From positions 1 to 64,000 of IMG/VR virus record IMGVR_UViG_3300020577_008743: 64,000 nt of DNA. One strand, given 5' to 3'. Of the stretch, positions 28,173 through 51,659 are shown piece after piece; position 1 is the first letter of the stretch; each line of letters begins with the position of its first letter. The stretch is from a virus. Its lineage: Duplodnaviria > Caudoviricetes. The position numbers were made by a program, and so were the translations under genes. Below the pieces are notes generated by a model. The model was given only the letters and a program-made list of their open reading frames with translations, ran no database searches and was not told where the DNA came from.

Positions 28173-28249
28173 GGGTCGCTAGCTCAGTCTGGTAGAGCAG
28201 CGGACTTTTAATCCGTTGGTCACTGGTTCGAATCCAGTGCGGCCTACCA
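28173..28249 (+). tRNA. tRNA-Lys(UUU)
   Basis: cloverleaf, TTT, CCA. Confidence 0.92.
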
Positions 28250-28256
28250 CAAATTT

Positions 28257-28332
28257 GGGGCCATAGCTCAGTTGGGAGAGCGGGTGCTTTGCAAGCATCA
28301 GGTCGTCGGTTCGATCCCGTCTGGCTCCACCA
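28257..28332 (+). tRNA. tRNA-Ala(UGC)
   Basis: G3.U70, TGC, CCA. Confidence 0.93.
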
Positions 28333-33321: not shown

Positions 33322-33408
33322 CGGGGTGTAGGTCCGTAATCAGGTAGCGGTCTCGGCTTGGATCCGAGTGGGAAACCCTTGCAGGTTCAAATCCTGCCTC
33401 CCCGACCA
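33322..33408 (+). tRNA. tRNA-Pro(UGG), atypical (variable-arm hairpin)
   Basis: CGGGG start, TGG, ACCA. Confidence 0.8.
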
Positions 33409-35283: not shown

Positions 35284-35336
35284 TTTCGAATTGAACAATA
35301 CTCTGAAAATCCCCCCTATTCCTGGTATAAGACTGT

Positions 35337-35502
35337 GGAGGATTCTCAGGGTATCAATGGTTGTTGAGTTCAATTTGGAAAATTGTGGCCTAACAAGCCG
35401 GGATCTAACAAATCTAACTTAGTGACCAAGAGGAAGAGCTACTCTTTCTTGTTCCATCTGCACGAGGCAGAATCCAAGGCGGGTCGAGCCTGTGAATCCT
35501 CC
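35337..35502 (+). ncRNA. putative structured RNA A
   Basis: starts just after promoter motif 35323; GGAGGATTC.CAGG pairs with CCTG.GAATCCTCC. Confidence 0.55.
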
Positions 35503-35563
35503 CCTTCGGGCAAAAGTGTGGAAAATCAGCTTCCATAAAAATCAAATTGCTGGTATAAGACAG

Positions 35564-35780
35564 TGTGATAAAGTATTATCGCGACTTCCGAACCCCTACT
35601 AAAGGTAGGGTCTAGCGGTTCAAGTCCTCGGTGCAAATCCGTGGCAAGTCAAGCGATGAGAGCATGCAACGTGCTCACTTTTCTCCACCTGGGTGGCCCC
35701 AAACCAGAGCTGGAGACCAGGACTGATCAATAGATGTAGTAGTTCTTCCCAGATCACGTCATAAAACAGAGTTTATCACA
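35564..35780 (+). ncRNA. putative structured RNA B
   Basis: starts after promoter motif 35551; TGTGATAAA/TTTATCACA closing helix; several hairpins. Confidence 0.55.
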
Positions 35781-35805
35781 AACGGATTTGTAGTACGGTA
35801 GTAAT

Positions 35806-35985
35806 GGAATAAGTCATAAAGCTGCCTAGGCTTGAGGAGAGGAAACTTCTCCACTTTTCTTTCGTGTCCGGTGAACCGGCACGAGGACTTAAACGACCAC
35901 CTTTATATATATATAAAGTATATTAAAGGGCCCCCTGGAGCAGCTCAGCCAGGCGGGGCTGCAAAGTCGTTGAGTTATTCCACCA
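35806..35985 (+). ncRNA. putative structured RNA C ending in an acceptor-like stem plus ACCA
   Basis: GGAATAA/TTATTCC-A-CCA. Confidence 0.5.
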
Positions 35986-36353
35986 GTTTCAGTTTCAAAG
36001 TTTAAACCTGGTTAAAGTACCCTAATAAAACCAAAAAAGGGGTGAATGAAACGTTCACATTTTCTCTTCCACACAAGCACACTCAATAGAAAATCTCCTC
36101 GCAAAACCTGCTCGGAGTGGTGGTCTTGTGTGGACAATGGACTGACGGTCCGACAACCAATGCGCCTCCGGCAGCTATGCGTTGTTCGAAGACGTCGTCG
36201 ACACTACAACTGATGTCTGCTGGTTGCGTATCGGCAGGCGCGATACCCAGCGGGCCGCCGGACACAAGAAGCGTACTCTTCAGCTGCTCGAGCACCTCCG
36301 CCACGGCACTGGTAGAACGGCTCCTTCAGTCATAAGTCAGTCGAGTTTAACCA

Positions 36354-36430
36354 GGGACTATAGCTCAATTGGTCAGAGCGAAGAACTCATAATTCTGGGG
36401 TTACAGGTTCGAGCCCTGTTAGTCCCACCA
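36354..36430 (+). tRNA. tRNA(CAU): Ile2 or elongator Met
   Basis: cloverleaf, CAT, ACCA. Confidence 0.85.
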
Positions 36431-36481: not shown

Positions 36482-36661
36482 ATGACAAAGTCGCTCTTCG
36501 TACTGAAAAACACTAAAACCGGGAAAACATCGGCGGAGACCTTCGCAAACAAGATGGACGCGAAGAATGAACGACGAGCGAGAAACGGAATCAGCAAGGA
36601 CGGCAAGGAAATCCTCACCTGGGTCGTGGCTTACGGCCCGGATCATCACAAGTCGGCTTAG
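36482..36661 (+). CDS. small hypothetical protein
   Basis: ATG at 36482 within ORF-track frame. Confidence 0.55.
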   Translation: MTKSLFVLKNTKTGKTSAETFANKMDAKNERRARNGISKDGKEILTWVVAYGPDHHKSA

Positions 36662-36696
36662 AAATAGGTCATCGTAACTGAATGAAAGGCTTCACC

Positions 36697-37500
36697 ATGG
36701 ACGCCCGGAAATCCGTAGCACTGCACACCCTCGTCGCTGTTCGCCCGACGTTGGAAACAACCCTGAAAACGATCTCAGCCGAAACGGACAACTCCTTCCG
36801 AAAACCCGAAAGCCTGACGGAATGGGAAAAGACCTTCACATCGACGGTCACCTGGCCGGAAGGCTCCGAGGCTCTGAAGGTCGCTCTGGAATCCCAACGT
36901 TCCGGTCACCGTGCGGCGGTCACTTCAACTCAGGATCGAATCGGTTACGAAGCCGCCGAACAGGTCAAGTACTGGGACTTGATGCACAACATCGAGCTGG
37001 GCAACCAGGTCGCGGTTGCTGACGTGGTCCTAAAAGACGGCACAGTCTTGATGACCCGCGTCCCCGCAACGCACTTGCGTCGACTGGATACGTGGCTCAC
37101 CACCTTCCGCAACCGCATCGCGAACTGTCCCACGGTCCCGTCAACTATCAACGTGGAACAGGCCTCCCGCAACGGCAGAATGGTCTACGCCGGACCGGTG
37201 AAAACCATCACCGTGTACGAGGAAACCAAAAGCTGGGTGAAGGTCGCCGAGGCCAATGTACACCAGAAGGAAGCCACCGTCCGCGAAGCCGTCACCAAGA
37301 CGCCAATCGGCATCGAGAAGGAGATCAACTACTACGGCATGCCCACTTCTTCGGAGAAGGCACAGCTGCTGACCCGTCTTGATGAGCTGATCGTGGCAGT
37401 CAAGGAGGCGATCACTGAATCAAACACGGTGACCATCGAACCCGTTTCGGTCTCCAAAACTCTCATGGCCTATGCCTTCACCGGCAAGGTCAATGCCTGA
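36697..37500 (+). CDS. conserved elongated coiled-coil/beta-hairpin protein (DUF7873-like by recall, unverified)
   Basis: ADVV..G.VL...VPAT.L..L....; K..L..R.D.L..AVK.A..E.N pattern. Confidence 0.65.
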   Translation: MDARKSVALHTLVAVRPTLETTLKTISAETDNSFRKPESLTEWEKTFTSTVTWPEGSEALKVALESQRSGHRAAVTSTQDRIGYEAAEQVKYWDLMHNIELGNQVAVADVVLKDGTVLMTRVPATHLRRLDTWLTTFRNRIANCPTVPSTINVEQASRNGRMVYAGPVKTITVYEETKSWVKVAEANVHQKEATVREAVTKTPIGIEKEINYYGMPTSSEKAQLLTRLDELIVAVKEAITESNTVTIEPVSVSKTLMAYAFTGKVNA

Positions 37501-37666
37501 AAAGGAATGAAGTCGTAAGTTTGGCTAACGCACATTGCGCAACTCACAGCTGACATTGGGTCTGATAACCCTGAGGGTTATCTTGCAAGGCCCACAAACG
37601 CACAACGCAAAACGCCAAACAAACGCACATAACTTCCTGGAGTAGAAAACCGCCGAAAACATCGCC

Positions 37667-37780
37667 TTGGAGTTTCAAACGAAATCGTGTCGGGGGTTCG
37701 AGCCCCTCCGCCGCTTCAAATTGCATACTAACGTGTGTAATTCGGAGCGGTGTAACTCAGTGGTAGAGTACGGTTTCCAA
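37667..37780 (+). ncRNA. circularly permuted tRNA-like domain within the 37500-37900 non-coding region
   Basis: T arm, then CGCCGCT, hairpin linker, AGCGGTG, D arm; closed by GAAATCGT/ACGGTTTC. Confidence 0.8.
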
Positions 37781-37949
37781 TACACCCAAAAAACCTCTAA
37801 TGAGCGTGGTCAAAAGCACAACCAGGTATACTAATAGCGTATATTGCTACCAATGATACCAGGTCCCTATGGGGTCGGATAATGCCCTGTGGGGACCGCT
37901 TAATGCAGATTTGGATTCAATAAGTCTCCATTAAGCGGTATAAGAATAT

Positions 37950-38515
37950 GAAGGTAAAGTAACTGCTGTACTAAAAAAAAGCAAAGTGGGTGTAACATCC
38001 ACACGTTTCTTTCAGTCCTAACAACTTGTGTCGTTCGCCTTTGGGCTCACTGGCCCCCTAACGGGTGCCCCACAAGTTGCCAGCTCTGATGAGCTGGGCC
38101 TCAGGATCCAACGACTGGGTCCCCGGGGACTGGATGTCTTCTTGCACACCCGGTGCATTTTGGATGCTGAGCAAGATGGGCAACGCAATTGCCCGCCGGC
38201 TCAGTGAGATCTGCAGACATCGTCACCTGGTGTTGTTCTGGATCCCGAAGGTCGAGTTTACCTACATTAGCAACAGAAGTAGAAACAAAATGAATTCAAG
38301 AATTGAGGCTCTGGGAACAACATTGCGCCGCCTGAATGTCGGAACAAGGTCTTCCCCCCTGTGAGTTCGGCATTCCGCAATTTGGCGTCCTCCCGCCGAG
38401 TTGCATACCAATGCCCAGAGCCTCAACCTTACAAACGAAGAGCGTAAGCTCATGAATACGCCATCAACGAAGCTGACCACTTCGTTTCAAGCCCGGTCGT
38501 TCTTCGTTTGTTTTA
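37950..38515 (+). ncRNA. putative large structured RNA
   Basis: follows CGGTATAAG at 37936; 13-bp and 14-bp helices plus nested hairpins; no convincing ORF. Confidence 0.55.
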
Positions 38516-38523
38516 GCCACAAT

Positions 38524-38661
38524 TAGGACCGCAGAATTACGATTATCTATAATAGCTGACATGCTGCAGGTTCGAGTCCTGCCTGGCCCACCATCTATGG
38601 GTCCAGTGGCGAAATGGTATACGCATCAGCCCTAAACCAGTCGTATTCATAATTTGTCCTA
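38524..38661 (+). ncRNA. Y RNA-like 1 (YrlA type, tRNA-like domain)
   Basis: TAGGAC-CG..TTTGTCCTA stem, TTATC, T arm-acceptor-D arm order. Confidence 0.85.
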
Positions 38662-38670
38662 TTCTTCAAC

Positions 38671-38729
38671 GGGGGCGAAGTAGAAACTTATGAAGTTCGC
38701 AGCTTCTATTTTTCGATACGCTTCCACCA
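38671..38729 (+). ncRNA. 59-nt alanine-acceptor minihelix-like RNA
   Basis: GGGGGCG/CGCTTCC-A-CCA with G3.U70. Confidence 0.6.
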
Positions 38730-38734
38730 ACAAA

Positions 38735-39061
38735 ATGTCTCACACAACCGAGTTGTACTTCGAGTCACATATCACTATTGAGCCCGTGTTCGATGAAAGA
38801 CTGGAACAGTTCAAGGGAATATGTGCTTCGGAGGGTTTCAAGGCAGCAGAGCTGCTGATGAAAAAACGTTCGGGTGATACCGCTGAACGTTCGCAGTACG
38901 ATACCTTTTGCACTAGTAGAGATCTTATTTATGATAAAATCCAGACTAGAACATTAACCTTGGTCGAAAAGTTGCAGTCTTCCGGGTTTGACGTCTGGAG
39001 ATATAAGATTGAGAATACCTTGTTGGATGTTAGACTTAAATTAGAGTCTAAAATCCAGTAG
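38735..39061 (+). CDS. hypothetical protein inside the Y RNA cluster
   Basis: YFESHITI..WRYKIE. Confidence 0.65.
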   Translation: MSHTTELYFESHITIEPVFDERLEQFKGICASEGFKAAELLMKKRSGDTAERSQYDTFCTSRDLIYDKIQTRTLTLVEKLQSSGFDVWRYKIENTLLDVRLKLESKIQ

Positions 39062-39162
39062 GGCAAAAGATTCGATTGTTGTTTATATTACTAAATATAT
39101 TGAGTCTGTAAAAGCTGTTTGCAGTAGAATCAAGAAACATTCGTAGTACTAGAAGCATCCTC

Positions 39163-39224
39163 AGGGCCGCAGGAAGATCGGTTATCCCCTACACTGATGA
39201 CTCCGATTTCCGTATTTTCGCCCT
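39163..39224 (+). ncRNA. Y RNA-like 2 (minimal)
   Basis: AGGGC-CG..TTCGCCCT, GGAAGATCGG/CCGATTTCC, TTATC. Confidence 0.75.
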
Positions 39225-39234
39225 TCCCCCAATT

Positions 39235-39295
39235 AGAGCCGATTTGAGCTGGGTTATCCTTCTAAGATACCTCCCCATCTCAGTTCCCTTGCTCT
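39235..39295 (+). ncRNA. Y RNA-like 3 (minimal)
   Basis: AGAGC-CG..TTGCTCT, TGAG.TGGG/CCCA.CTCA, TTATC. Confidence 0.75.
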
Positions 39296-39324
39296 CCCTC
39301 TTGTAGTTGTGGTACAATCAACTT

Positions 39325-39453
39325 TTGAGCCGCTGTTAAATTCCGTTATCTTCCTTAGAAATAGGAAGTTGCGGGTTCGAATCCCGTCGCCAGCTTATAT
39401 CTGGCGTAGTTTAATTGGTAAAACTAAAACCGGAACTACACTAATTCGCTCAA
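39325..39453 (+). ncRNA. Y RNA-like 4 (tRNA-like domain)
   Basis: TTGAGC-CG..TTCGCTCAA, TTATC, GGTTCGAATCC, CGCCAG/CTGGCG, TAGTTTAATTGGTAAAAC; TGTGGTACAAT just upstream. Confidence 0.85.
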
Positions 39454-39460
39454 CCCCATT

Positions 39461-39530
39461 TAGGGCCGTCAGGTTATGTCGGTTATCTCACTTTTAGCGA
39501 AAACCCCGATTAACCATAAATTTTGCCCTA
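39461..39530 (+). ncRNA. Y RNA-like 5 (minimal)
   Basis: TAGGGC-CG..TTTGCCCTA, GGTTA..TCGG/CCGA.TAACC, TTATC. Confidence 0.75.
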
Positions 39531-39549
39531 CTGATTTAAATTTCAATTT

Positions 39550-39609
39550 GGAGCCGCTTAAAACTGGGTTATCAATTGGTGATTACTCCCCAGTCTAACT
39601 TTTCGCTCC
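39550..39609 (+). ncRNA. Y RNA-like 6 (minimal)
   Basis: GGAGC-CG..TTCGCTCC, ACTGGG/CCCAGT, TTATC. Confidence 0.75.
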
Positions 39610-39663
39610 TCCCGTTTAAACAAAGATTGCTGGGTTCAAACCTCTTTCTTTTAGCTGTTCAAA

Positions 39664-41609
39664 ATGACCTCTCACAGAAAAATTACCCCGTCTGAACGAA
39701 ATATTCTCCACCTCATAAATCGTAGCATAGCGGATTCAGAAGGCTGGTGTAATGTAAGTTCTGCCGTGTTTCCCCTTGTCAAAGACTTTGACTCTGAACT
39801 AGTTGAAATAAACGGCAACAAAATTCGGTTGACATCGGTAGGTAAGATACTTGCAGATTGGACTTGATTATGACCGACTCAGAACTAATACAAAATGCGG
39901 CTAAAGCCATCGGACTCATTGCAACCCCGATATTTACGGAAAATTTCGAGGGCCAGGAGTGGTGGGCGTATGAAGAAGGCAAGCCTACACAAACGCTAAG
40001 GCCGTGGAATCCTCTTGTGGATGATGGGGATGCCCTACGGTTGCTCGTAGAACTTGGAGACTATGTCCAGGAGGGGAGCTGGCCTTATATGTGGGGAGAG
40101 GCCCAAGAACAGGCTAAAGAAAACGATGGGCAAATAGACTGGTGTAAGGTTGTTCGTAGAACCATAGTAAAAGCTGCCGCCAATAAATGGTTAAGGATGG
40201 ATAGATCAAATGAAAAAGCAACCTCTAAATCCGCAGATTGAAAAACTTCTCGAGTTGTTAGACAAGGCCACGGAAGAACAACGAGGCAGCGAGAGGGCCC
40301 TGTACCTGTTGCTGAAACTCAATGTCGCTGTTCTTCCTGAACTGGATTACAGTTTTCACAAGGCTTTCAGACAGTATGATGTAACTGAGTCCGGTGAAAT
40401 GGATATGGCAATCTGGCATCTTTTAGGGGTTTCAAAGACGTTCTGGGAGGTGTTCGGGAAAATTACCGGAACAGATGATGAGGAGCCCGGCGAAGATGGC
40501 TAGAATAGAACTTATCTTCCCCGAGGAAGGATACCGTGAAGTAATCGGTGAAAGAGCACTCACTTTGGAAGAGGCTTTTGAAGCAGGAGTATTTTGGGCG
40601 ACCAGGCAGTTTCAAAGTAAATTCGGCATGTACTACCGCAAAGATGAGTGGGGAGAAAGAGACTACGTAGATGTAAAGTCCATTTTCCCCGATCATGTCA
40701 GGGACAAGATATGACCTGTAGGTTTTGCAACAAACCTTCCGTCAGTTACTACGATATATCTTTGACTGGTATTGGCAATTTCATTGAATACTGCAAGAAT
40801 CACCAGGAAGAGGCTCGTCAAAAGCGCGATGAGCATGATAGATATTGGGAAGAAATCCGAAAGGAAGTTATGAGGGAAAATGGCTAAAGTAACCTGGACA
40901 ATAGAGGATCACATATGTAGTTCTTGCGGGGGTCGAATAGTAAGATCAGCCAAGGGAACTGGTCCCACCCCTGGAGGAAATCCCGTATACAAGTGTTCTT
41001 TATGTGGTAAAGTTACAACAGAAATGGGAGGTCATTCCCTGTGTTGGTGCGGATATTCACAGAAATCCAATAACAACTCCCTTCCATATAAATGCGTTCC
41101 GTATTCGATATTAGAGAAATACCCTGACGGCTTAAGTTACTTTAAGTTTTGTGGATGTGATCCTAGGCGGGGAGGGGAAGTGGGAGTAATGTTAGAGGAG
41201 GATTGGAATGAACTTAGAAAAAAAGACATTGCCGTACAAGTCATACCACCAACAGCTGATTGAGGCTAACACCAAAACAGAGGCTCTTCGAGAACTAATC
41301 TCAACATTGGGTGAATTGTTGGTAAAAGAACAGGAAGCCCGTATTTTATACGAAGATGCTGTATGGAAAATGGTCAACGATGGTTGGTTAGTCCACGGTC
41401 CGGAAGGCATGAGTGAAGCTCAACAAGCTGTCTATGATGTTTGTAAAAATCATCCGGAGCTAAAAACTCGAATAAAACAAAAGCAAGAAGAACAGAGAAA
41501 TTACGAAGAAGCTACGAACAGAAATGTTCGGCTAGAATCCACTCCGGGAACATACGTACCAAATCCCAAACCCCTACCAGCCTGGCGTCGTTTGTTTCGC
41601 TGGCTGTAA
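39664..41609 (+). other. run of small hypothetical genes (39664-39867, 39858-40241, 40210-40503, ~40496-40714, ~40711-40887, 40880-41263, 41208-41609)
   Basis: overlapping + strand ORFs. Confidence 0.55.
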
Positions 41610-41615
41610 CCAAAT

Positions 41616-41743
41616 TTGAGCCGTTAGAATTTGATTATCCAATCGCAGGACGTGGTCAAAGGTTCGAATCCTTTCTCCCCCGCCATCAATGGGGGAGTAG
41701 CTCAGAGGTAGAGCACGTAAACTCGAATTCTGTTTTTGCTCAA
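41616..41743 (+). ncRNA. Y RNA-like 7 (tRNA-like domain)
   Basis: TTGAGC-CG..TTTGCTCAA, TTATC, AAAGGTTCGAATCCTTT, CTCCCCC/GGGGGAG, TAGCTCAGAGGTAGAGC. Confidence 0.88.
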
Positions 41744-41750
41744 TTCCAAT

Positions 41751-41881
41751 TTGGACCGAAGTTATTCAGTTATCGCTCCCAATGCGCCAGATCGGTTAAG
41801 TCCAGCACCCGTTGATTCATGGGTCGTAGTGTATAGAAGCACGGCGCATATTTTCAATTGATTAACGTTCACTTTGTCCAA
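41751..41881 (+). ncRNA. Y RNA-like 8 (degenerate tRNA-like domain)
   Basis: TTGGAC-CGAA..CTTTGTCCAA, TTATC, TGCGCC/GGCGCA enclosing T-, acceptor- and D-like hairpins. Confidence 0.8.
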
Positions 41882-41921
41882 CTCTGTTTTTACCCGTAGT
41901 AAACCAACCTGGAGAACCGAA

Positions 41922-43598
41922 ATGTCTGCAAAGAATCTTGTGAATCACCTCGTTCCGGGCCGCTATGCTTCCATTCCTGCGAAGCGTACTCCCGCCGCCC
42001 CGAAGGTGACCAAATCCACCAACCCGAACGCTGGCCTGCCGCCAGTGTCCACTTCTGCGTATCAGAAAACCGCCGCCGGCCAAGTTCAAAACTCGTCCGG
42101 AGCCTATGTTGGCAAATTGGATGTGTGGGCTCATCTGAATCGGTTTCTCATTCTCGGCACTTCCGGCTCGTCCTACTACGCCTCAGAGCGCAAGATGACC
42201 GTTGACATGGCCAAGGCCGTGGAAGCTGCAGTGAAATACAACGGCATTTCCACCGTCGATCTGATCGTGGAAATCAGCCAAGCCGGTGCCGCTCCAAAGA
42301 ATGATCCGGCCTTGCTGGCTCTGGCCATCTGCGTCGCCAAGGGGGATGATTCCACCAAGGCCTACGCAATGAACCAGCTGCCGAAGGTAGCCAGAATTTC
42401 GACTCACCTGTTCGATTTTCTGACCTACGTTCAGGCCATGAGAGGCTGGGGAAGAACCCTGAAAGAAGGTGTTGCCAACTGGTATACTTCCAAGGATCTG
42501 AACCCCTTAGCCATGCAGATGACGAAGTATCGTCAAAGAAATGGCTGGACTCACCGCGACGTTCTGAGACTGGCTCACCCGAAGCCCACCTCCGAGTCCA
42601 TGAACAATCTGTTCAAGTGGGCCATCAAAGGTCCAGAAGCACTGGAAAGAGGTGCGGAAATCCCTGAACAAGTCATCGGCTTCGAGAAGGCAAAGACCGC
42701 AGGTTCCGGTACTCTGGTCAAACTGATTCAGGATTACCGCCTGACCTGGGAGATGATTCCGACTGAGATGCTGAATGATGCCAACGTGTTTCACGCTCTA
42801 GTCATGAGCATGAATCTCGAGGCCATGATTCGCAATCTGCCGCGCATCACCAATCTCAACTTGTTGCTTACTCGGGAAGTCAGGGACCGTATTCTGAGTC
42901 TTCTGAGAAACGCAGAGGAGATCAAGGCCAAGCGGTACCATCCCCTCAAGGCTCTGGTGGCTAGAAAGACCTACGCCAGTGGCCGAGGTCTGAAGGGTAG
43001 CATGACCTGGGTACCCAACGCCGAGGTTGCCAGGGCCCTGGAAGACACGTTCTATCTGGGGTTCGATGCAGTGGAACCCACAGGCAAAAGACTTCTGTTG
43101 GGTATCGACGTCTCCGGCTCCATGACCATGGGCCAAGTAGGGGGCATGCCCCTTGCTCCGTACGAAGCTGTTGCCGCAATGGCAATGGTTACGGCACGTT
43201 GCGAACCTCTGGCAGAAATCCTCGGCTTTTCGTACAACCTGCAAGACCTTGGTATCAAGAACACCGATACTCTGGCCCAGGTTCTGAAGAAAGTGCAATT
43301 GGCTCGATTTGGAAGTACGAATCCCGGAGCACTAATTCAGTACGCAGCCAAGAAAGGCAATGTGGAAGGCCTGGTCGTCTACACCGACAACGAAGTGAAC
43401 CAAGGTTCCAGCGTTGCGGCAGAGATGAAGAAATATCGCACCAAGGCTTCTGTGGCCAGAGCAACGATGACTGTAGTCGGAATGACGGTCAACAATTTCA
43501 CCCTAGCCGACCCCAAAGATCCAGACATGCTCGACATTGTTGGATTCGATACCGCTGCTCCAGCAGTGATGTCCGAGTTCATCAAGGGCACTTTCTGA
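41922..43598 (+). CDS. rsr: Ro60/Rsr TROVE-vWA RNA-binding protein
   Basis: RFLILG, KYRQRNGWTHRDVLRLAHP, AMIRNL, IDVSGSM, YTDNE, MLDIVGFD. Confidence 0.95.
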   Translation: MSAKNLVNHLVPGRYASIPAKRTPAAPKVTKSTNPNAGLPPVSTSAYQKTAAGQVQNSSGAYVGKLDVWAHLNRFLILGTSGSSYYASERKMTVDMAKAVEAAVKYNGISTVDLIVEISQAGAAPKNDPALLALAICVAKGDDSTKAYAMNQLPKVARISTHLFDFLTYVQAMRGWGRTLKEGVANWYTSKDLNPLAMQMTKYRQRNGWTHRDVLRLAHPKPTSESMNNLFKWAIKGPEALERGAEIPEQVIGFEKAKTAGSGTLVKLIQDYRLTWEMIPTEMLNDANVFHALVMSMNLEAMIRNLPRITNLNLLLTREVRDRILSLLRNAEEIKAKRYHPLKALVARKTYASGRGLKGSMTWVPNAEVARALEDTFYLGFDAVEPTGKRLLLGIDVSGSMTMGQVGGMPLAPYEAVAAMAMVTARCEPLAEILGFSYNLQDLGIKNTDTLAQVLKKVQLARFGSTNPGALIQYAAKKGNVEGLVVYTDNEVNQGSSVAAEMKKYRTKASVARATMTVVGMTVNNFTLADPKDPDMLDIVGFDTAAPAVMSEFIKGTF

Positions 43599-45309: not shown

Positions 45310-45918
45310 ATGAGTCAGCCACCAGTTTACCGCAACACTCTCCCCGATCATCTGTTTCAGATGTACCCGCTGTTGAAACGTACCCTCACGCTGATTCAGC
45401 TGGGACACGCCGGTCAGTTGTACAACGGGCATCCTTACTGGCATCATCCGGTGCGGGTTGCCATGAGGCTGGAATCACTGTGGGTACAGAACGAGGGGTC
45501 TTTGCTGTATTCCGCTCTTCTTCACGACTTGATCGAAGATACTTCCCTGGAAGTCGATGATTTGAAGGAGTTCGGATATTCCGACACCGTGGTAAAAACG
45601 GTCAAAGCCCTGACTCATGATGCATTCGATACCCGGACGTACATGGAGTATGTCCAGGACATCACCATTCATCCGGAGTCTTTCGTTCGCCACGGAGCCA
45701 GCCTTGTCAAGTTGGCAGACCTGACGGAGAACGTGAACGGAGCCAGGTTTCTGCCCATGGAGAAAAGGGGAAGAATGGAACGTTACGGAAAGGCAATATC
45801 GGTCATTCAAGACTCTCTCATTCTTCACAGCCCCTGGGTAGCCCACTCCGTCCACGTCGGTGAGTTGGACGCAGCCAAGCTTGAGATGTGGTTCGGCCAT
45901 CCCCCAGCGTTTCTGTAA
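45310..45918 (+). CDS. HD-domain hydrolase ((p)ppGpp hydrolase/Mesh1-like)
   Basis: HAGQ..PYWHHP, ALLHDLIEDT, VKLAD..N. Confidence 0.8.
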   Translation: MSQPPVYRNTLPDHLFQMYPLLKRTLTLIQLGHAGQLYNGHPYWHHPVRVAMRLESLWVQNEGSLLYSALLHDLIEDTSLEVDDLKEFGYSDTVVKTVKALTHDAFDTRTYMEYVQDITIHPESFVRHGASLVKLADLTENVNGARFLPMEKRGRMERYGKAISVIQDSLILHSPWVAHSVHVGELDAAKLEMWFGHPPAFL

Positions 45919-50429: not shown

Positions 50430-51659
50430 ATGAGCCAACACGAAGTACTAATATACAAGGCAAAGCTGCTGCCTCATCCCAACGCGGATATGATAGAGCT
50501 TTGTCAGATCGGAGACTACCTCTCTATTGTCAAGAAGGGTGATTTCAAGGAAGATCAGCCGGTAGCCTATATTCCTGAACAATCAATTGTTCCAGAACCT
50601 CTTTTGGAAGAAATGGGGTTGAAGAACAAGCTCTCTGGTGCAGCCCGAAACCGGGTCAAAGCCATCAAGTTGCGTGGTACTCTATCCCAGGGCTTGGTGT
50701 ACGTCAAACCGGGAGGTTACGCCGAAGAGGACGTAGGTCGAAACGTAGCTGAAGAGCTGGGGATCATCAAGTGGTCTCCGACTCTACCGGTCCACCTACG
50801 AGGAAAAGCCAAAGGCATGGCTTACGATATTACTGTCAACTACGATATAGAGAATATCAAAAAATGGAACCGACACATTGAAGAAGGGGACTTGGTAGTA
50901 ATCACCGAGAAAATTCATGGAACAAACGTCCAGATTGGTTATGCTCCACGTTGTGGGAGCAGTGGCGGAGGGGTGGGCATTAGTTATGACGGACAGTCTT
51001 CCTCCGGAGGGCCCGATGGAGGTGGGTCAGGCGTTGACGTGGTCTCATCCGAGACCAGGAATATTCTGTTTGAGAACTCATTCTGGGTTAGTTCAAAAGG
51101 TTTGGGTGGTAGGGGAATCATTCTCGATATGGAAGATTCCTCCAACGTTTACGCCAATATTGCTCGTTCCATCGAATATAACCTTCTTGAGAAAATCCGC
51201 AATTTTTACACCGGAAAAAACCTCAGACACATCGAGTATCTCTCAGGCCTTCAATGCCCCCCGATAGTCCTGATAGGAGAAATATTCGGGCCAGGTATTC
51301 AAACAGGTTTTCACTACGGTCAAACCAAGCCTGAATTCAGGCTATTCGACATTGCTGTAGGCCCTCGTAATAACAGGATGTACCTGAGCTGGGACGATTA
51401 CATGCAAGCAGCCTTTATCATGGGCATTCCGACAGTCCCTACTTTGTATATCGGTCCGTTCTCAAAAGAGATTCTGGCACAGTACACCTCTGGCAAGGAA
51501 AAGGTTACCAACCATTCCCACCACATGAGGGAAGGTTGCGTAGTTCGGTTGATCAATGAGAAGTCTTCAGGAAACCTGGGCAGGGTTATTCTGAAGAGCA
51601 TATCGGAAGAGTATCTAACTAGAAAAGGTACCGAGGAAGAATTGACGGAGTACCAGTGA
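50430..51659 (+). CDS. ATP-dependent RNA ligase (DRB0094/Rnl2-like)
   Basis: HPNAD N-terminal domain, EKIHGTN, GEIFG, FRLFDI, REGCVV, ILKSIS. Confidence 0.88.
   Translation: MSQHEVLIYKAKLLPHPNADMIELCQIGDYLSIVKKGDFKEDQPVAYIPEQSIVPEPLLEEMGLKNKLSGAARNRVKAIKLRGTLSQGLVYVKPGGYAEEDVGRNVAEELGIIKWSPTLPVHLRGKAKGMAYDITVNYDIENIKKWNRHIEEGDLVVITEKIHGTNVQIGYAPRCGSSGGGVGISYDGQSSSGGPDGGGSGVDVVSSETRNILFENSFWVSSKGLGGRGIILDMEDSSNVYANIARSIEYNLLEKIRNFYTGKNLRHIEYLSGLQCPPIVLIGEIFGPGIQTGFHYGQTKPEFRLFDIAVGPRNNRMYLSWDDYMQAAFIMGIPTVPTLYIGPFSKEILAQYTSGKEKVTNHSHHMREGCVVRLINEKSSGNLGRVILKSISEEYLTRKGTEEELTEYQ

What the first reader, a model, noticed from the sequence alone, without database searches (positions are those of the whole stretch)
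36697..37900. Coiled-coil gene followed by an RNA with AACGC repeats and a circularly permuted tRNA-Trp-like domain
Seen: directly after the stop codon lies ~400 nt without an ORF. It has A/C-rich unpaired repeats (AACGC at 37527, 37597, 37604, 37611, 37622, three at 7-nt spacing) and a GATAACCC/GGGTTATC hairpin. Then come a T arm, 3' acceptor strand, hairpin linker, 5' acceptor strand and D arm, continuing into CGGTTTCCAA (Trp-like; A1-U72), and a closing GGTCCC/GGGACC hairpin. It has no Ro-binding stem, so it is not one of the Y RNAs. Inference: a dedicated protein-plus-RNA system in which the repeats are multimeric binding sites for the protein and the tRNA mimic docks on a ribosome, synthetase or nuclease.
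Basis: partly seen in the sequence, partly recalled or inferred. Interest (0 to 1): 0.8.

Follow-up and report, generated by a model that had tools for sequence, protein, structure and literature searches.

The report
Phage tRNA-mimic RNA paired with DUF7873
The "permuted tRNA" is a real, structurally conserved tRNA-mimic RNA of the bacterial Y-RNA (YrlA) type that sits just after a gene of unknown function (DUF7873) in 16 of 18 loci from very different phages, most of which lack the usual Y-RNA partner Ro60, so the two probably form a previously undescribed protein-RNA pair.

Summary

The core, 37674-37779, is a tRNA mimic in the YrlA order:
- T arm
- 7-bp acceptor stem closed by a 30-nt extension hairpin
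- D arm
- 7-bp closing helix, GAAAUCG/CGGUUUC

There is no closed anticodon loop. One C of the CCA triplet lies in the closing helix, and the triplet is not conserved in relatives.

Rfam's nearest family is YrlA, at 24.5 bits against a cut-off of 69. A Ro60 gene lies 4 kb downstream, behind eight other Y-RNA-like elements.

The DUF7873 gene (36697-37500) is followed on the same strand by one or two such RNAs in 16 of 18 loci. These come from phages of Proteobacteria, Actinobacteria and Cyanobacteria.
- A covariance model built from seven loci finds five untrained ones at 58-86 bits.
- It gives the top hit in each of the four complete genomes scanned.
- 27 of 28 base pairs show compensatory changes.
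- Eight of nine complete DUF7873 phage genomes have no Ro60.

So this is a conserved, Ro-independent DUF7873 plus tRNA-mimic module. Physical binding is only inferred.

The AACGC repeats are real but only marginally above chance, and their sequence is not conserved. DUF7873 has no recognisable fold.

The parts
36482..36661 (+). small 59-aa ORF directly upstream of DUF7873; possible third member of the module in this clade
   Evidence: 41-59% identical homologues sit in the same position in L009, L017, L019 and L020. No Pfam family.
36697..37500 (+). DUF7873 gene (267 aa)
   Evidence: Pfam PF25283, E 6.4e-25, 88.7 bits against a cut-off of 27. The family has 1776 clusters at 50% identity. The AF2 model has pLDDT 91. 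No PDB or BFVD fold match.
37524..37673 (+). A/C-rich leader with five AACGC copies (37527, 37597, 37604, 37611, 37622)
   Evidence: Positions confirmed. A metatranscriptome contig covers 37524-37667 and has a junction exactly at 37524. The repeat sequence is shared only with L017. Other lineages carry other short repeats.
37557..37592 (+). hairpin GGGUCU / GAUAACCC-UGA-GGGUUAUC / UUGCA bulge / AGGCCC
   Evidence: Present in the MFE fold of the 410-nt region. L009 and L017 also carry a GC-rich hairpin early in the leader.
37681..37687 (+). 5' strand of the closing helix (GAAAUCG), in the place of the anticodon stem 3' strand
   Evidence: Pairs with 37771-37777. All five core pairs show compensatory changes across homologues.
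37688..37708 (+). variable-loop equivalent UGUC plus T arm (GGGGG / UUCGAGC / CCCUC)
   Evidence: All five T-stem pairs covary. C48 and G15 are invariant in A6.
37709..37752 (+). acceptor stem (CGCCGCU / AGCGGUG, 7 bp) closed by a 30-nt insert that forms a 10-bp extension helix with a UAAC loop
   Evidence: The acceptor pairs in 100% of cells and all seven pairs covary. The extension helix pairs in 95.7% of cells.
37753..37770 (+). U8-A9, D arm (ACUC / AGUGGUA / GAGU), A26
37771..37777 (+). 3' strand of the closing helix (CGGUUUC). The following CAA completes the alleged CCA 'anticodon'.
   Evidence: Direct pairing with 37681-37687. The MFE fold of 37555-37791 shows the cloverleaf-like domain.
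37778..37861 (+). 3' tail of unknown extent, A/C-rich
   Evidence: Partly alignable with L009 and L017. The 3' end is not determined.
37862..37897 (+). hairpin GGUCCC...CGGAUAAU...GGGACC. It may end the RNA or belong to the next unit.
   Evidence: Conserved in L009 and L017 and directly followed by a conserved block, TTCAAT-N17-TATAAG (promoter-like; my reading), at 37921-37949. No U tract follows it.

Best explanation
The stretch holds a two-part phage module, possibly three-part in this clade. It consists of the DUF7873 gene and, starting about 25 nt after its stop codon, a non-coding RNA.

The core of the RNA (37674-37779) is a tRNA mimic built like YrlA-class Y RNAs:
- variable-loop remnant and T arm
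- acceptor stem that is closed, and roughly doubled in length, by an extension helix
- D arm
- a closing helix where a tRNA would have its anticodon stem

The 5' leader and 3' tail leave the structure where the anticodon loop would be.

Shown: the RNA structure is under selection. The gene-RNA pairing is conserved across phages of three bacterial phyla. The pairing does not depend on a phage Ro60 gene.

Inferred: both are transcribed from the same strand. DUF7873 binds this RNA, either the leader or the long acceptor arm. The L-shaped tRNA-like elbow lets the particle engage a host factor that recognises tRNA shape. In this window the module lies beside a Ro60 gene with eight Y-RNA-like genes and an RNA ligase, so the likely field of action is RNA surveillance, repair or tRNA-directed conflict with the host. 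That last step is speculation.
For: Structure:
- The Rfam YrlA model aligns T arm, acceptor and D arm.
- On alignment A6 (7 sequences) 96.3% of cells pair and 25 of 28 pairs have changes on both sides. Slid controls give about 42%, and 0 of 500 shuffles reach the observed values.
- On A9 (11 sequences, 4 of them not used in training) 27 of 28 pairs are compensatory.

Coupling to DUF7873:
- A homologous RNA lies on the same strand, 89-604 nt after the stop codon, in the window, L009, L017, L019, L020, L021 and L023.
- The same holds in Klebsiella phage KpLz-2_45, Rhizobium phages RHph_Y65 and RHph_Y1_11, Ralstonia phiRSL1, Vibrio phage K479, Gordonia phages Ronaldo and Phendrix, Arthrobacter phage Mimi and Pseudanabaena phage PA-SR01.
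- Covariance model R1 scores these RNAs at 58-104 bits. It scores Ro-adjacent elements at 28-55 bits and tandem-tRNA artefacts at 33 bits or less.
- In the complete genomes of 79-297 kb the top hit is always the one after DUF7873.

Ro independence: no TROVE protein is found in 8 of 9 complete DUF7873 phage genomes, and the control genomes respond correctly.

Expression hint: an RNA-library contig covers 37524-37667 and has a junction exactly at 37524.
Against: - No direct evidence that the protein binds RNA. DUF7873 has a neutral median pI of 7.0 and no recognisable RNA-binding fold.
- In two loci no complete element was found: L022 has none and L028 only a partial one.
- In several phages the elements behind DUF7873 have short acceptor loops like ordinary YrlA (L025, L027). 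The long acceptor arm is therefore typical, not universal.
- Four of the 18 loci carry a Ro60 gene within about 6 kb (window, L009, L019, RHph_Y65), and L020 has Ro-type Y-like elements. A functional tie to Ro60 therefore remains possible.
- Conserved adjacency fits a cis-acting mRNA element as well as it fits a protein-RNA particle.
Confidence: 0.5

Rival explanations
1. It is simply a ninth Y RNA of this phage's Ro60 system. Ro60 (phage or host) binds its leader and tail, and the tRNA-like module tethers an effector as in YrlA. DUF7873 would be an accessory or an unrelated syntenic gene.
For: - The topology is the same as YrlA, which is the best Rfam match.
- Ro60 lies at 41874-43598, with eight Y-like elements between.
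- The L009 homologue carries a canonical UAGGGCCG in its leader.
- Cut at 37555-37791, the window's RNA can close with UUGGGU/ACCCAA, like the UUGAGC/GCUCAA stems of the neighbouring elements.
- DUF7873 and Ro60 lie within about 6 kb of each other in four of the loci.
Against: - The compound motif GRRCCG-N-DTTATC occurs eight times, all between 38526 and 41775, and not in this RNA.
- The long-range terminal stem is not conserved in L009 or L017.
- GNCGAA at 37652 lacks the trailing G, and the hexamer is common by chance.
- Eight of nine complete DUF7873 phage genomes have no TROVE protein yet keep the RNA. Use of a host Ro60 could not be tested.
Confidence: 0.2
2. It is a cis-acting part of the DUF7873 transcript. 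The tRNA-shaped 3' element would be cut by RNase P or RNase Z, or would block exonucleases, so setting the mRNA's 3' end or stability, as tRNAs embedded in operons do.
For: - The RNA is always on the same strand, 89-604 nt behind the stop codon, with no convincing promoter or U-tract terminator between.
- The module often sits in phage tRNA gene clusters, where co-transcription and RNase P punctuation are the rule. That rule is established knowledge of polycistronic tRNA processing.
- N-C-C follows the acceptor 3' strand in most copies.
Against: - A processing signal would not need the conserved extension helix, the closing helix or the full set of elbow nucleotides. Nor would it need to be tied to one protein family across three host phyla.
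- Many other genes in the same tRNA regions lack it: in whole genomes the high-scoring element occurs once, after DUF7873.
Confidence: 0.17
3. It is a circularly permuted tRNA (Trp) or two-piece tmRNA-like gene. The transcript would be cut in the linker and matured to a CCA-ended, chargeable molecule.
For: - The permuted order matches that of two-piece tmRNA genes. Rfam's beta_tmRNA model hits positions 86-150.
- Joined in silico, the two halves are called a tRNA by ARAGORN.
- Several homologues encode N-CCA after the acceptor 3' strand: L009, L014, L019, L020.
- The 97-kb record (CheckV estimate 63% complete) has no tRNA-Trp.
Against: - The window's copy reads UCAA, not NCCA.
- There is no closed anticodon loop, and no anticodon is conserved across homologues.
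- The beta_tmRNA hit scores 19 bits against a cut-off of 84, and ARAGORN reports no tmRNA.
- Position 3-70 is C-G, not the G-U of alanine identity.
- The linker is a conserved, covarying helix continuous with the acceptor stem, not a disposable spacer.
Confidence: 0.05

Closest known systems
YrlA (Rfam RF02553), the tRNA-like subfamily of bacterial and phage Y RNAs (Chen et al. 2014, PMC4201824)
   Same: - The same permuted order: variable region, T arm, closed acceptor stem, D arm, then a stem replacing the anticodon arm.
- Conserved elbow nucleotides and the G15:C48 pair.
- Longer acceptor stems were already noted for some YrlA RNAs.
- Found in phages.
   Different: - Scores 24.5 bits against a gathering score of 69.
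- No clear GNCGAA(N0-1)G Ro-binding motif.
- A long A/C-rich leader.
- Its conserved neighbour is DUF7873, not Ro60, and most phages that carry the homologues have no Ro60 gene.
The eight Y-RNA-like elements of this same phage (38524-41881) next to Ro60
   Same: Same strand and region. Three or four of them also carry a permuted tRNA-like module. The 5' context is similar (AUUGGGUC against AUUUGAGCC or AAUUGGACC).
   Different: - They share GRRCCG-N6-18-DUUAUC and a 5-6 bp terminal stem followed by a U-rich 3' strand. This RNA does not.
- Their acceptor loops are 5-10 nt against 30 nt here.
- They score 28-55 bits with the R1 model, against 87 bits for this RNA.
Two-piece (circularly permuted) tmRNA of alpha- and beta-proteobacteria
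   Same: The gene order is T arm, acceptor 3' strand, intervening segment, acceptor 5' strand.
   Different: It has a full D arm. There is no G3:U70, and no tag reading frame or pseudoknots were detected. The intervening segment is a conserved helix. The Rfam score is far below the cut-off.
Permuted tRNA genes of Cyanidioschyzon merolae and other algae
   Same: The 3' half lies upstream of the 5' half, and a complete cloverleaf results after re-permutation.
   Different: Those mature through a circular intermediate into decoding tRNAs with an anticodon loop. Here no anticodon loop or conserved anticodon exists, and bacteria are not known to have that splicing endonuclease pathway (general knowledge, not tested here).

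Membership tests
YrlA (RF02553) | Score at or above Rfam's gathering threshold (69 bits) | tested here: not met
   24.5 bits, covering model positions 27-81 only. Homologues in other phages score 29-38 bits.
YrlA (RF02553) | tRNA-like module in the order T arm, closed acceptor stem, D arm, with tRNA elbow nucleotides | tested here: met
   Covariation is shown. G15, C48, U8, G18G19 and UUCRA are invariant in A6.
YrlA (RF02553) | GNCGAA(N0-1)G motif near the 5' end, the proposed Ro60 contact (PMC4201824) | tested here: inconclusive
   GCCGAA at 37652 is followed by AA, not G. The hexamer occurs 162 times in the window against about 126 expected, so one copy means little.
YrlA (RF02553) | Encoded next to a Ro60 (TROVE) gene | tested here: inconclusive
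   In this window Ro60 lies 4.1 kb downstream, with eight other elements closer to it. For the homologues, 8 of 9 complete phage genomes have no TROVE protein.
YrlA (RF02553) | Bound by Ro60 in vivo | not testable with these tools
   Needs immunoprecipitation.
Ro-type Y-like elements of this phage (GRRCCG...UUAUC class) | Compound 5' motif GRRCCG-N6-18-DTTATC | tested here: not met
   There are eight copies, all between 38526 and 41775, and none in 37501-37900. This RNA has GGGUCUG...GGGUUAUC instead.
Ro-type Y-like elements of this phage (GRRCCG...UUAUC class) | Terminal stem joining the 5' and 3' ends | tested here: inconclusive
   UUGGGU/ACCCAA forms in the fold of 37555-37791. In the 410-nt fold a local hairpin replaces it, and it is not conserved in L009 or L017.
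Two-piece tmRNA | Rfam or ARAGORN detection, G3:U70, tag reading frame | tested here: not met
   beta_tmRNA scores 19 bits against 84, on positions 86-150 only. ARAGORN finds no tmRNA. Pair 3-70 is C-G. The tag frame was not examined.
Decoding tRNA (permuted gene) | Closed 7-nt anticodon loop with a conserved anticodon | tested here: not met
   The strands flanking the would-be loop run out into the leader and the tail. The triplet differs between homologues, and re-permutation gives arbitrary anticodons.
DUF7873 (PF25283), for the protein | Pfam score above the curated cut-off over the full domain | tested here: met
   88.7 bits against 27, covering residues 14-266 of the ORF read from 36682 and profile positions 4-242 of 244.

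The most novel reading that the evidence does not exclude
DUF7873 is the dedicated protein partner of a YrlA-like tRNA mimic. Together they would form a Ro60-independent ribonucleoprotein that is widespread in large phages of at least three bacterial phyla. If so, DUF7873 would be the first candidate for the unknown factor that the tRNA-like module of YrlA-class RNAs recruits. The particle could act as a tRNA decoy or an RNA-repair adaptor during infection.
Probability: 0.35. Interest if true: 0.85.

Novelty: new variant of a known kind. Interest (0 to 1): 0.66.

Why it matters
YrlA-class Y RNAs are known tRNA mimics, but to my knowledge what their tRNA-like module binds is still open. They have also been looked for only beside Ro60 genes.

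Here the same RNA architecture is tied to a different, uncharacterised protein family with about 1,800 sequence clusters, almost all from phages. In most cases no Ro60 is present.

This gives a concrete, testable partner for a tRNA-mimic RNA. It assigns a first functional context to DUF7873. It also shows that Ro-centred searches miss a whole set of phage tRNA-like RNAs.

Several carrier phages are cultured: phiRSL1, the Klebsiella jumbo phages, and the Gordonia, Arthrobacter and Rhizobium phages. Binding and knockout tests are therefore straightforward.

No paper in the searchable library mentions DUF7873.

Tried and rejected
- blastn of 36600-39100 against the phage records found no match.
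- Single-protein and alignment-based scans of IMG/VR for DUF7873 and Ro60 relatives found none.
- An exact-pattern scan for the conserved downstream block found none in viral or metagenome contigs.
- A word-based protein search with DUF7873 found only the window's own protein. The exhaustive profile search was needed.
- Fold searches of the DUF7873 model gave only weak matches. Foldseek against PDB and BFVD gave nothing at E 0.001 or better. VIA-align gave a best Z of 7.5, to generic helical bundles.
- PADLOC and PHROGs gave no hit for DUF7873.
- The ESM Atlas returned only DUF7873 clusters.
- GNCGAA and GRRCCG as single motifs are too frequent to be informative.
- I considered a long-range terminal stem, UUGGGU/ACCCAA, as a Ro-type closure. 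I rejected it as established, because L009 and L017 do not conserve it.
- The RNA-library run X19 gave no contig over the DUF7873 ORF. A stretch without cover proves nothing, so this is not used as evidence.
- The Trp origin rests on my memory of E. coli tRNA-Trp only. Short, diverged sequence could not be tested by BLAST, so it is left as a lead.
- P0123's contig could not be read because the sample file was too large.
- No complex prediction was run, because the tool handles protein-protein pairs only and I claim no such pair.
Full report
**Setting**

The window is the first 64 kb of a 97,490-bp IMG/VR virus record. It carries 17 tRNA genes, all on the + strand. Near-identical DNA occurs in sludge, wastewater, river and freshwater metagenomes.

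**The observation**

- Five AACGC copies lie at 37527, 37597, 37604, 37611 and 37622.
- The GATAACCC/GGGTTATC hairpin lies at 37564-37582.
- The T arm is 37692-37708.
- The acceptor 3' strand is 37709-37715, followed by a 30-nt linker.
- The acceptor 5' strand is 37746-37752, pairing 7 of 7 with A1-U72.
- The D arm is 37755-37769.
- CGGTTTCCAA lies at 37771.
- The GGTCCC/GGGACC hairpin is 37862-37897.

The gene at 36697-37500 is a member of Pfam DUF7873 (88.7 bits). Its AlphaFold2 model (pLDDT 91) has four long helices packed on a beta-sheet, so it is not a simple coiled coil.

**What the RNA core is**

Rfam's only matches here are YrlA and the permuted beta-proteobacterial tmRNA.
- YrlA (Y RNA-like) scores 24.5 bits against a cut-off of 69.
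- The tmRNA model scores 19 bits against 84, on the T-arm and acceptor part only.

The order of parts is exactly the architecture described for YrlA (PMC4201824): variable-loop remnant, T arm, closed acceptor stem, D arm, then a stem in place of the anticodon arm.

The strand after the D arm, CGGUUUC (37771-37777), pairs with GAAAUCG (37681-37687) to give a 7-bp closing helix. The first C of 'CCA' is therefore paired. The rest runs into the 3' tail, and there is no closed anticodon loop.

The 30-nt linker is not a loose loop. After one unpaired nucleotide it continues the acceptor stem as a 10-bp helix.

**The Ro60 context**

A Ro60 orthologue (TROVE plus vWA_Ro60) lies at 41874-43598. The called gene, P0002 (558 aa), starts 16 codons further in, near 41922.

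Between this RNA and Ro60 the compound motif GRRCCG-N6-18-DTTATC occurs eight times. All copies are on the + strand and all lie within 38526-41775. Shuffles give 1.6 copies for the whole genome.

Each of these copies folds with a 5-6 bp terminal stem. They are Ro-type Y RNA-like genes, which other readers of this scan also noted.

The RNA under study lacks that motif. It can form a comparable terminal stem, UUGGGU/ACCCAA, when cut at 37555-37791. That stem is not conserved in relatives.

**Relatives of the phage**

One Logan contig, L009, has Ro60 at 68% identity. It shows the same order: a small ORF, DUF7873, a gap of about 960 nt without genes, and then Ro60.

The gap holds a homologous RNA, which gives a full-length YrlA alignment at 29.4 bits. 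Against the window it shows compensatory changes in nearly every pair of the T, acceptor, D and closing helices.

L017 is a third member of the clade.

**The key result**

The DUF7873 gene is followed by such an RNA in distant phages too. In Klebsiella jumbo phage KpLz-2_45, Rhizobium phage RHph_Y65, Ralstonia phiRSL1 and Vibrio phage K479, DUF7873 is followed by an unannotated gap. That gap holds a permuted tRNA-like element.

The same is true of five metagenomic contigs chosen only by DUF7873 similarity: L017, L019, L020, L021 and L023.

It is also true of Rhizobium phage RHph_Y1_11, Gordonia phages Ronaldo and Phendrix, Arthrobacter phage Mimi and Pseudanabaena phage PA-SR01.

Of the 18 loci:
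- 16 have a complete element 89-604 nt behind the stop codon on the same strand
- one has a partial element (Microcoleus phage)
- one short contig has none (L022)

**Covariance model**

I built a covariance model from seven of these RNAs.
- It scores trained and untrained DUF7873-adjacent RNAs at 58-104 bits.
- It scores Ro-adjacent YrlA-like elements at 28-55 bits.
- It scores junctions of tandem tRNA genes at 33 bits or less.

In the complete genomes of KpLz-2_45 (297 kb), phiRSL1 (231 kb), RHph_Y65 (207 kb) and K479 (79 kb), the best hit is always the element behind DUF7873.

On the 11-sequence alignment:
- 96.3% of cells pair, against about 43% for slid partners
- 27 of 28 pairs carry compensatory changes
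- 0 of 500 shuffles reach the observed values

That alignment is fitted to the model. The independent MAFFT alignment of seven sequences gives the same picture.

**Independence from Ro60**

A six-frame TROVE search finds no Ro60 in KpLz-2_45, phiRSL1, K479, Ronaldo, Phendrix, Mimi, PA-SR01 or RHph_Y1_11. It does find one in RHph_Y65, about 5.5 kb downstream of DUF7873. The control genomes respond as expected.

L019 carries Ro60, and both L019 and L020 carry Ro-type Y-like elements close by.

The module therefore often sits beside Ro60 systems but does not require a phage Ro60. Use of a host Ro60 could not be tested.

**Typical features of the DUF7873-associated RNA**
- The acceptor is closed by 24-106 nt that form an extension helix. 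In the window clade and the Gram-negative phages the insert is usually about 30 nt. Some actinophage and cyanophage copies have short loops.
- N-C-C usually follows the acceptor 3' strand, and the two Cs pair with GG before the 5' strand.
- The apical loop is often UUC-N3-4-GAG, but not in the window's copy.
- The leader is A/C-rich and poorly structured.

**The repeats**

AACGC-type repeats are shared only with L017. Other lineages have other short repeats:
- AAACU in L012, L014 and L019
- CUCAAGUU in L020
- AGCGUU in phiRSL1

Against dinucleotide shuffles the individual P values run from 0.007 to 1.0, and the window's is about 0.1. Combined by Fisher's method by hand, they give about 0.002.

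There is thus a weak general tendency to short repeats. The motif is not conserved, and nothing shows that the repeats are protein-binding sites.

**Identity of the tRNA mimic**

Joining the two halves in silico gives ARAGORN-recognised tRNAs. The 'anticodon' depends on where one joins, and it differs between homologues. The window's copy resembles tRNA-Trp from memory only, and no function as tRNA-Trp is indicated.

**Expression**

One metatranscriptome run holds a contig over 37524-37667. It is joined through one untemplated A to 38616-38661, which is the exact predicted 3' end of the first Ro-type element.

A second contig covers 37975-38223 and ends in an untemplated A-rich tail.

The depth is about 2, so these are hints of RNA ends, no more.

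**The protein**

DUF7873 has 1,776 clusters at 50% identity, nearly all of about 250 aa, mostly viral. The median pI is 7.0.

It has no fold match and no defence-system or PHROG annotation. It is not mentioned in the searchable literature.

A 59-aa ORF directly upstream is conserved in five related contigs.

**Verdict**

The RNA is a member of the known kind 'YrlA-like tRNA mimic', but it is not a member of the Rfam family by score and it is not a Ro-type element of this phage.

The new result is its conserved, Ro-independent coupling to DUF7873 across phages of three host phyla. I read this as a protein-RNA module. Binding is inferred, at about even odds.

The main rivals are a ninth Ro60 Y RNA and a cis-acting mRNA element.

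Noticed in passing
window 38524-41881 and 41874-43598: Eight Y-RNA-like elements share GRRCCG-N6-18-DUUAUC and a 5-6 bp terminal stem. From memory, human Y1 and Y4 carry GGUCCG...GGUUAUC. Three or four elements have tRNA-like modules. They lie upstream of a TROVE plus vWA Ro60 gene. Related arrays occur in L009, L019 and L020.
   Followed up: partly
window 36482-36661: A 59-aa ORF directly upstream of DUF7873 is conserved at 41-59% identity in L009, L017, L019 and L020. It has no Pfam family. It may be a third part of the module in this clade.
   Followed up: partly
window 37921-38223: A block TTCAAT-N17-TATAAG (promoter-like; my reading) is conserved in L009 and L017. It is followed by a stem with a UAA triloop (37986-38002) and a highly structured stretch. 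An RNA-library contig covers 37975-38223 and ends in untemplated AAAAACAAA. No Rfam family matches.
   Followed up: partly
window 35660, 35836, 36042, 37986: There are four copies of a 7-bp stem with an NAA triloop followed by ACUUUUCU-like sequence. TGGTATAAGAC boxes lie at 35321 and 35552. This points to a family of short promoter-driven RNAs in the ORF-poor stretch 35300-36350.
   Followed up: no
window 38661 joined to 37524: An RNA contig joins the 3' end of the first Ro-type element back to a point 24 nt after the DUF7873 stop, with one extra A. It could be a ligation chimera of two small RNAs, an in-vivo ligation or a circular RNA. Depth is 2.4.
   Followed up: no
L009 6222-6413: A group I intron hit above Rfam's cut-off (59.1 bits against 50) lies in the related contig, just upstream of the small ORF and DUF7873. 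The corresponding place in the window holds tRNA-Met (36354-36430).
   Followed up: no
window 33325-33405: Rfam calls a tRNA at 29.3 bits, just over the cut-off of 29, that ARAGORN does not report.
   Followed up: no
window 50430-51659 and 45310-45918: An RNA ligase (PF09414 plus an OB-fold domain) and a weak, sub-threshold HD-domain match (20.8 bits against a cut-off of 27.2) lie downstream of Ro60. This hints at an RNA-repair or surveillance region.
   Followed up: no
window 28216-28283: The YrlA model also 'hits' the junction of two adjacent tRNA genes (Lys and Ala). Tandem tRNAs are a systematic false positive for permuted tRNA-like models, at 20-33 bits with my model.
   Followed up: yes
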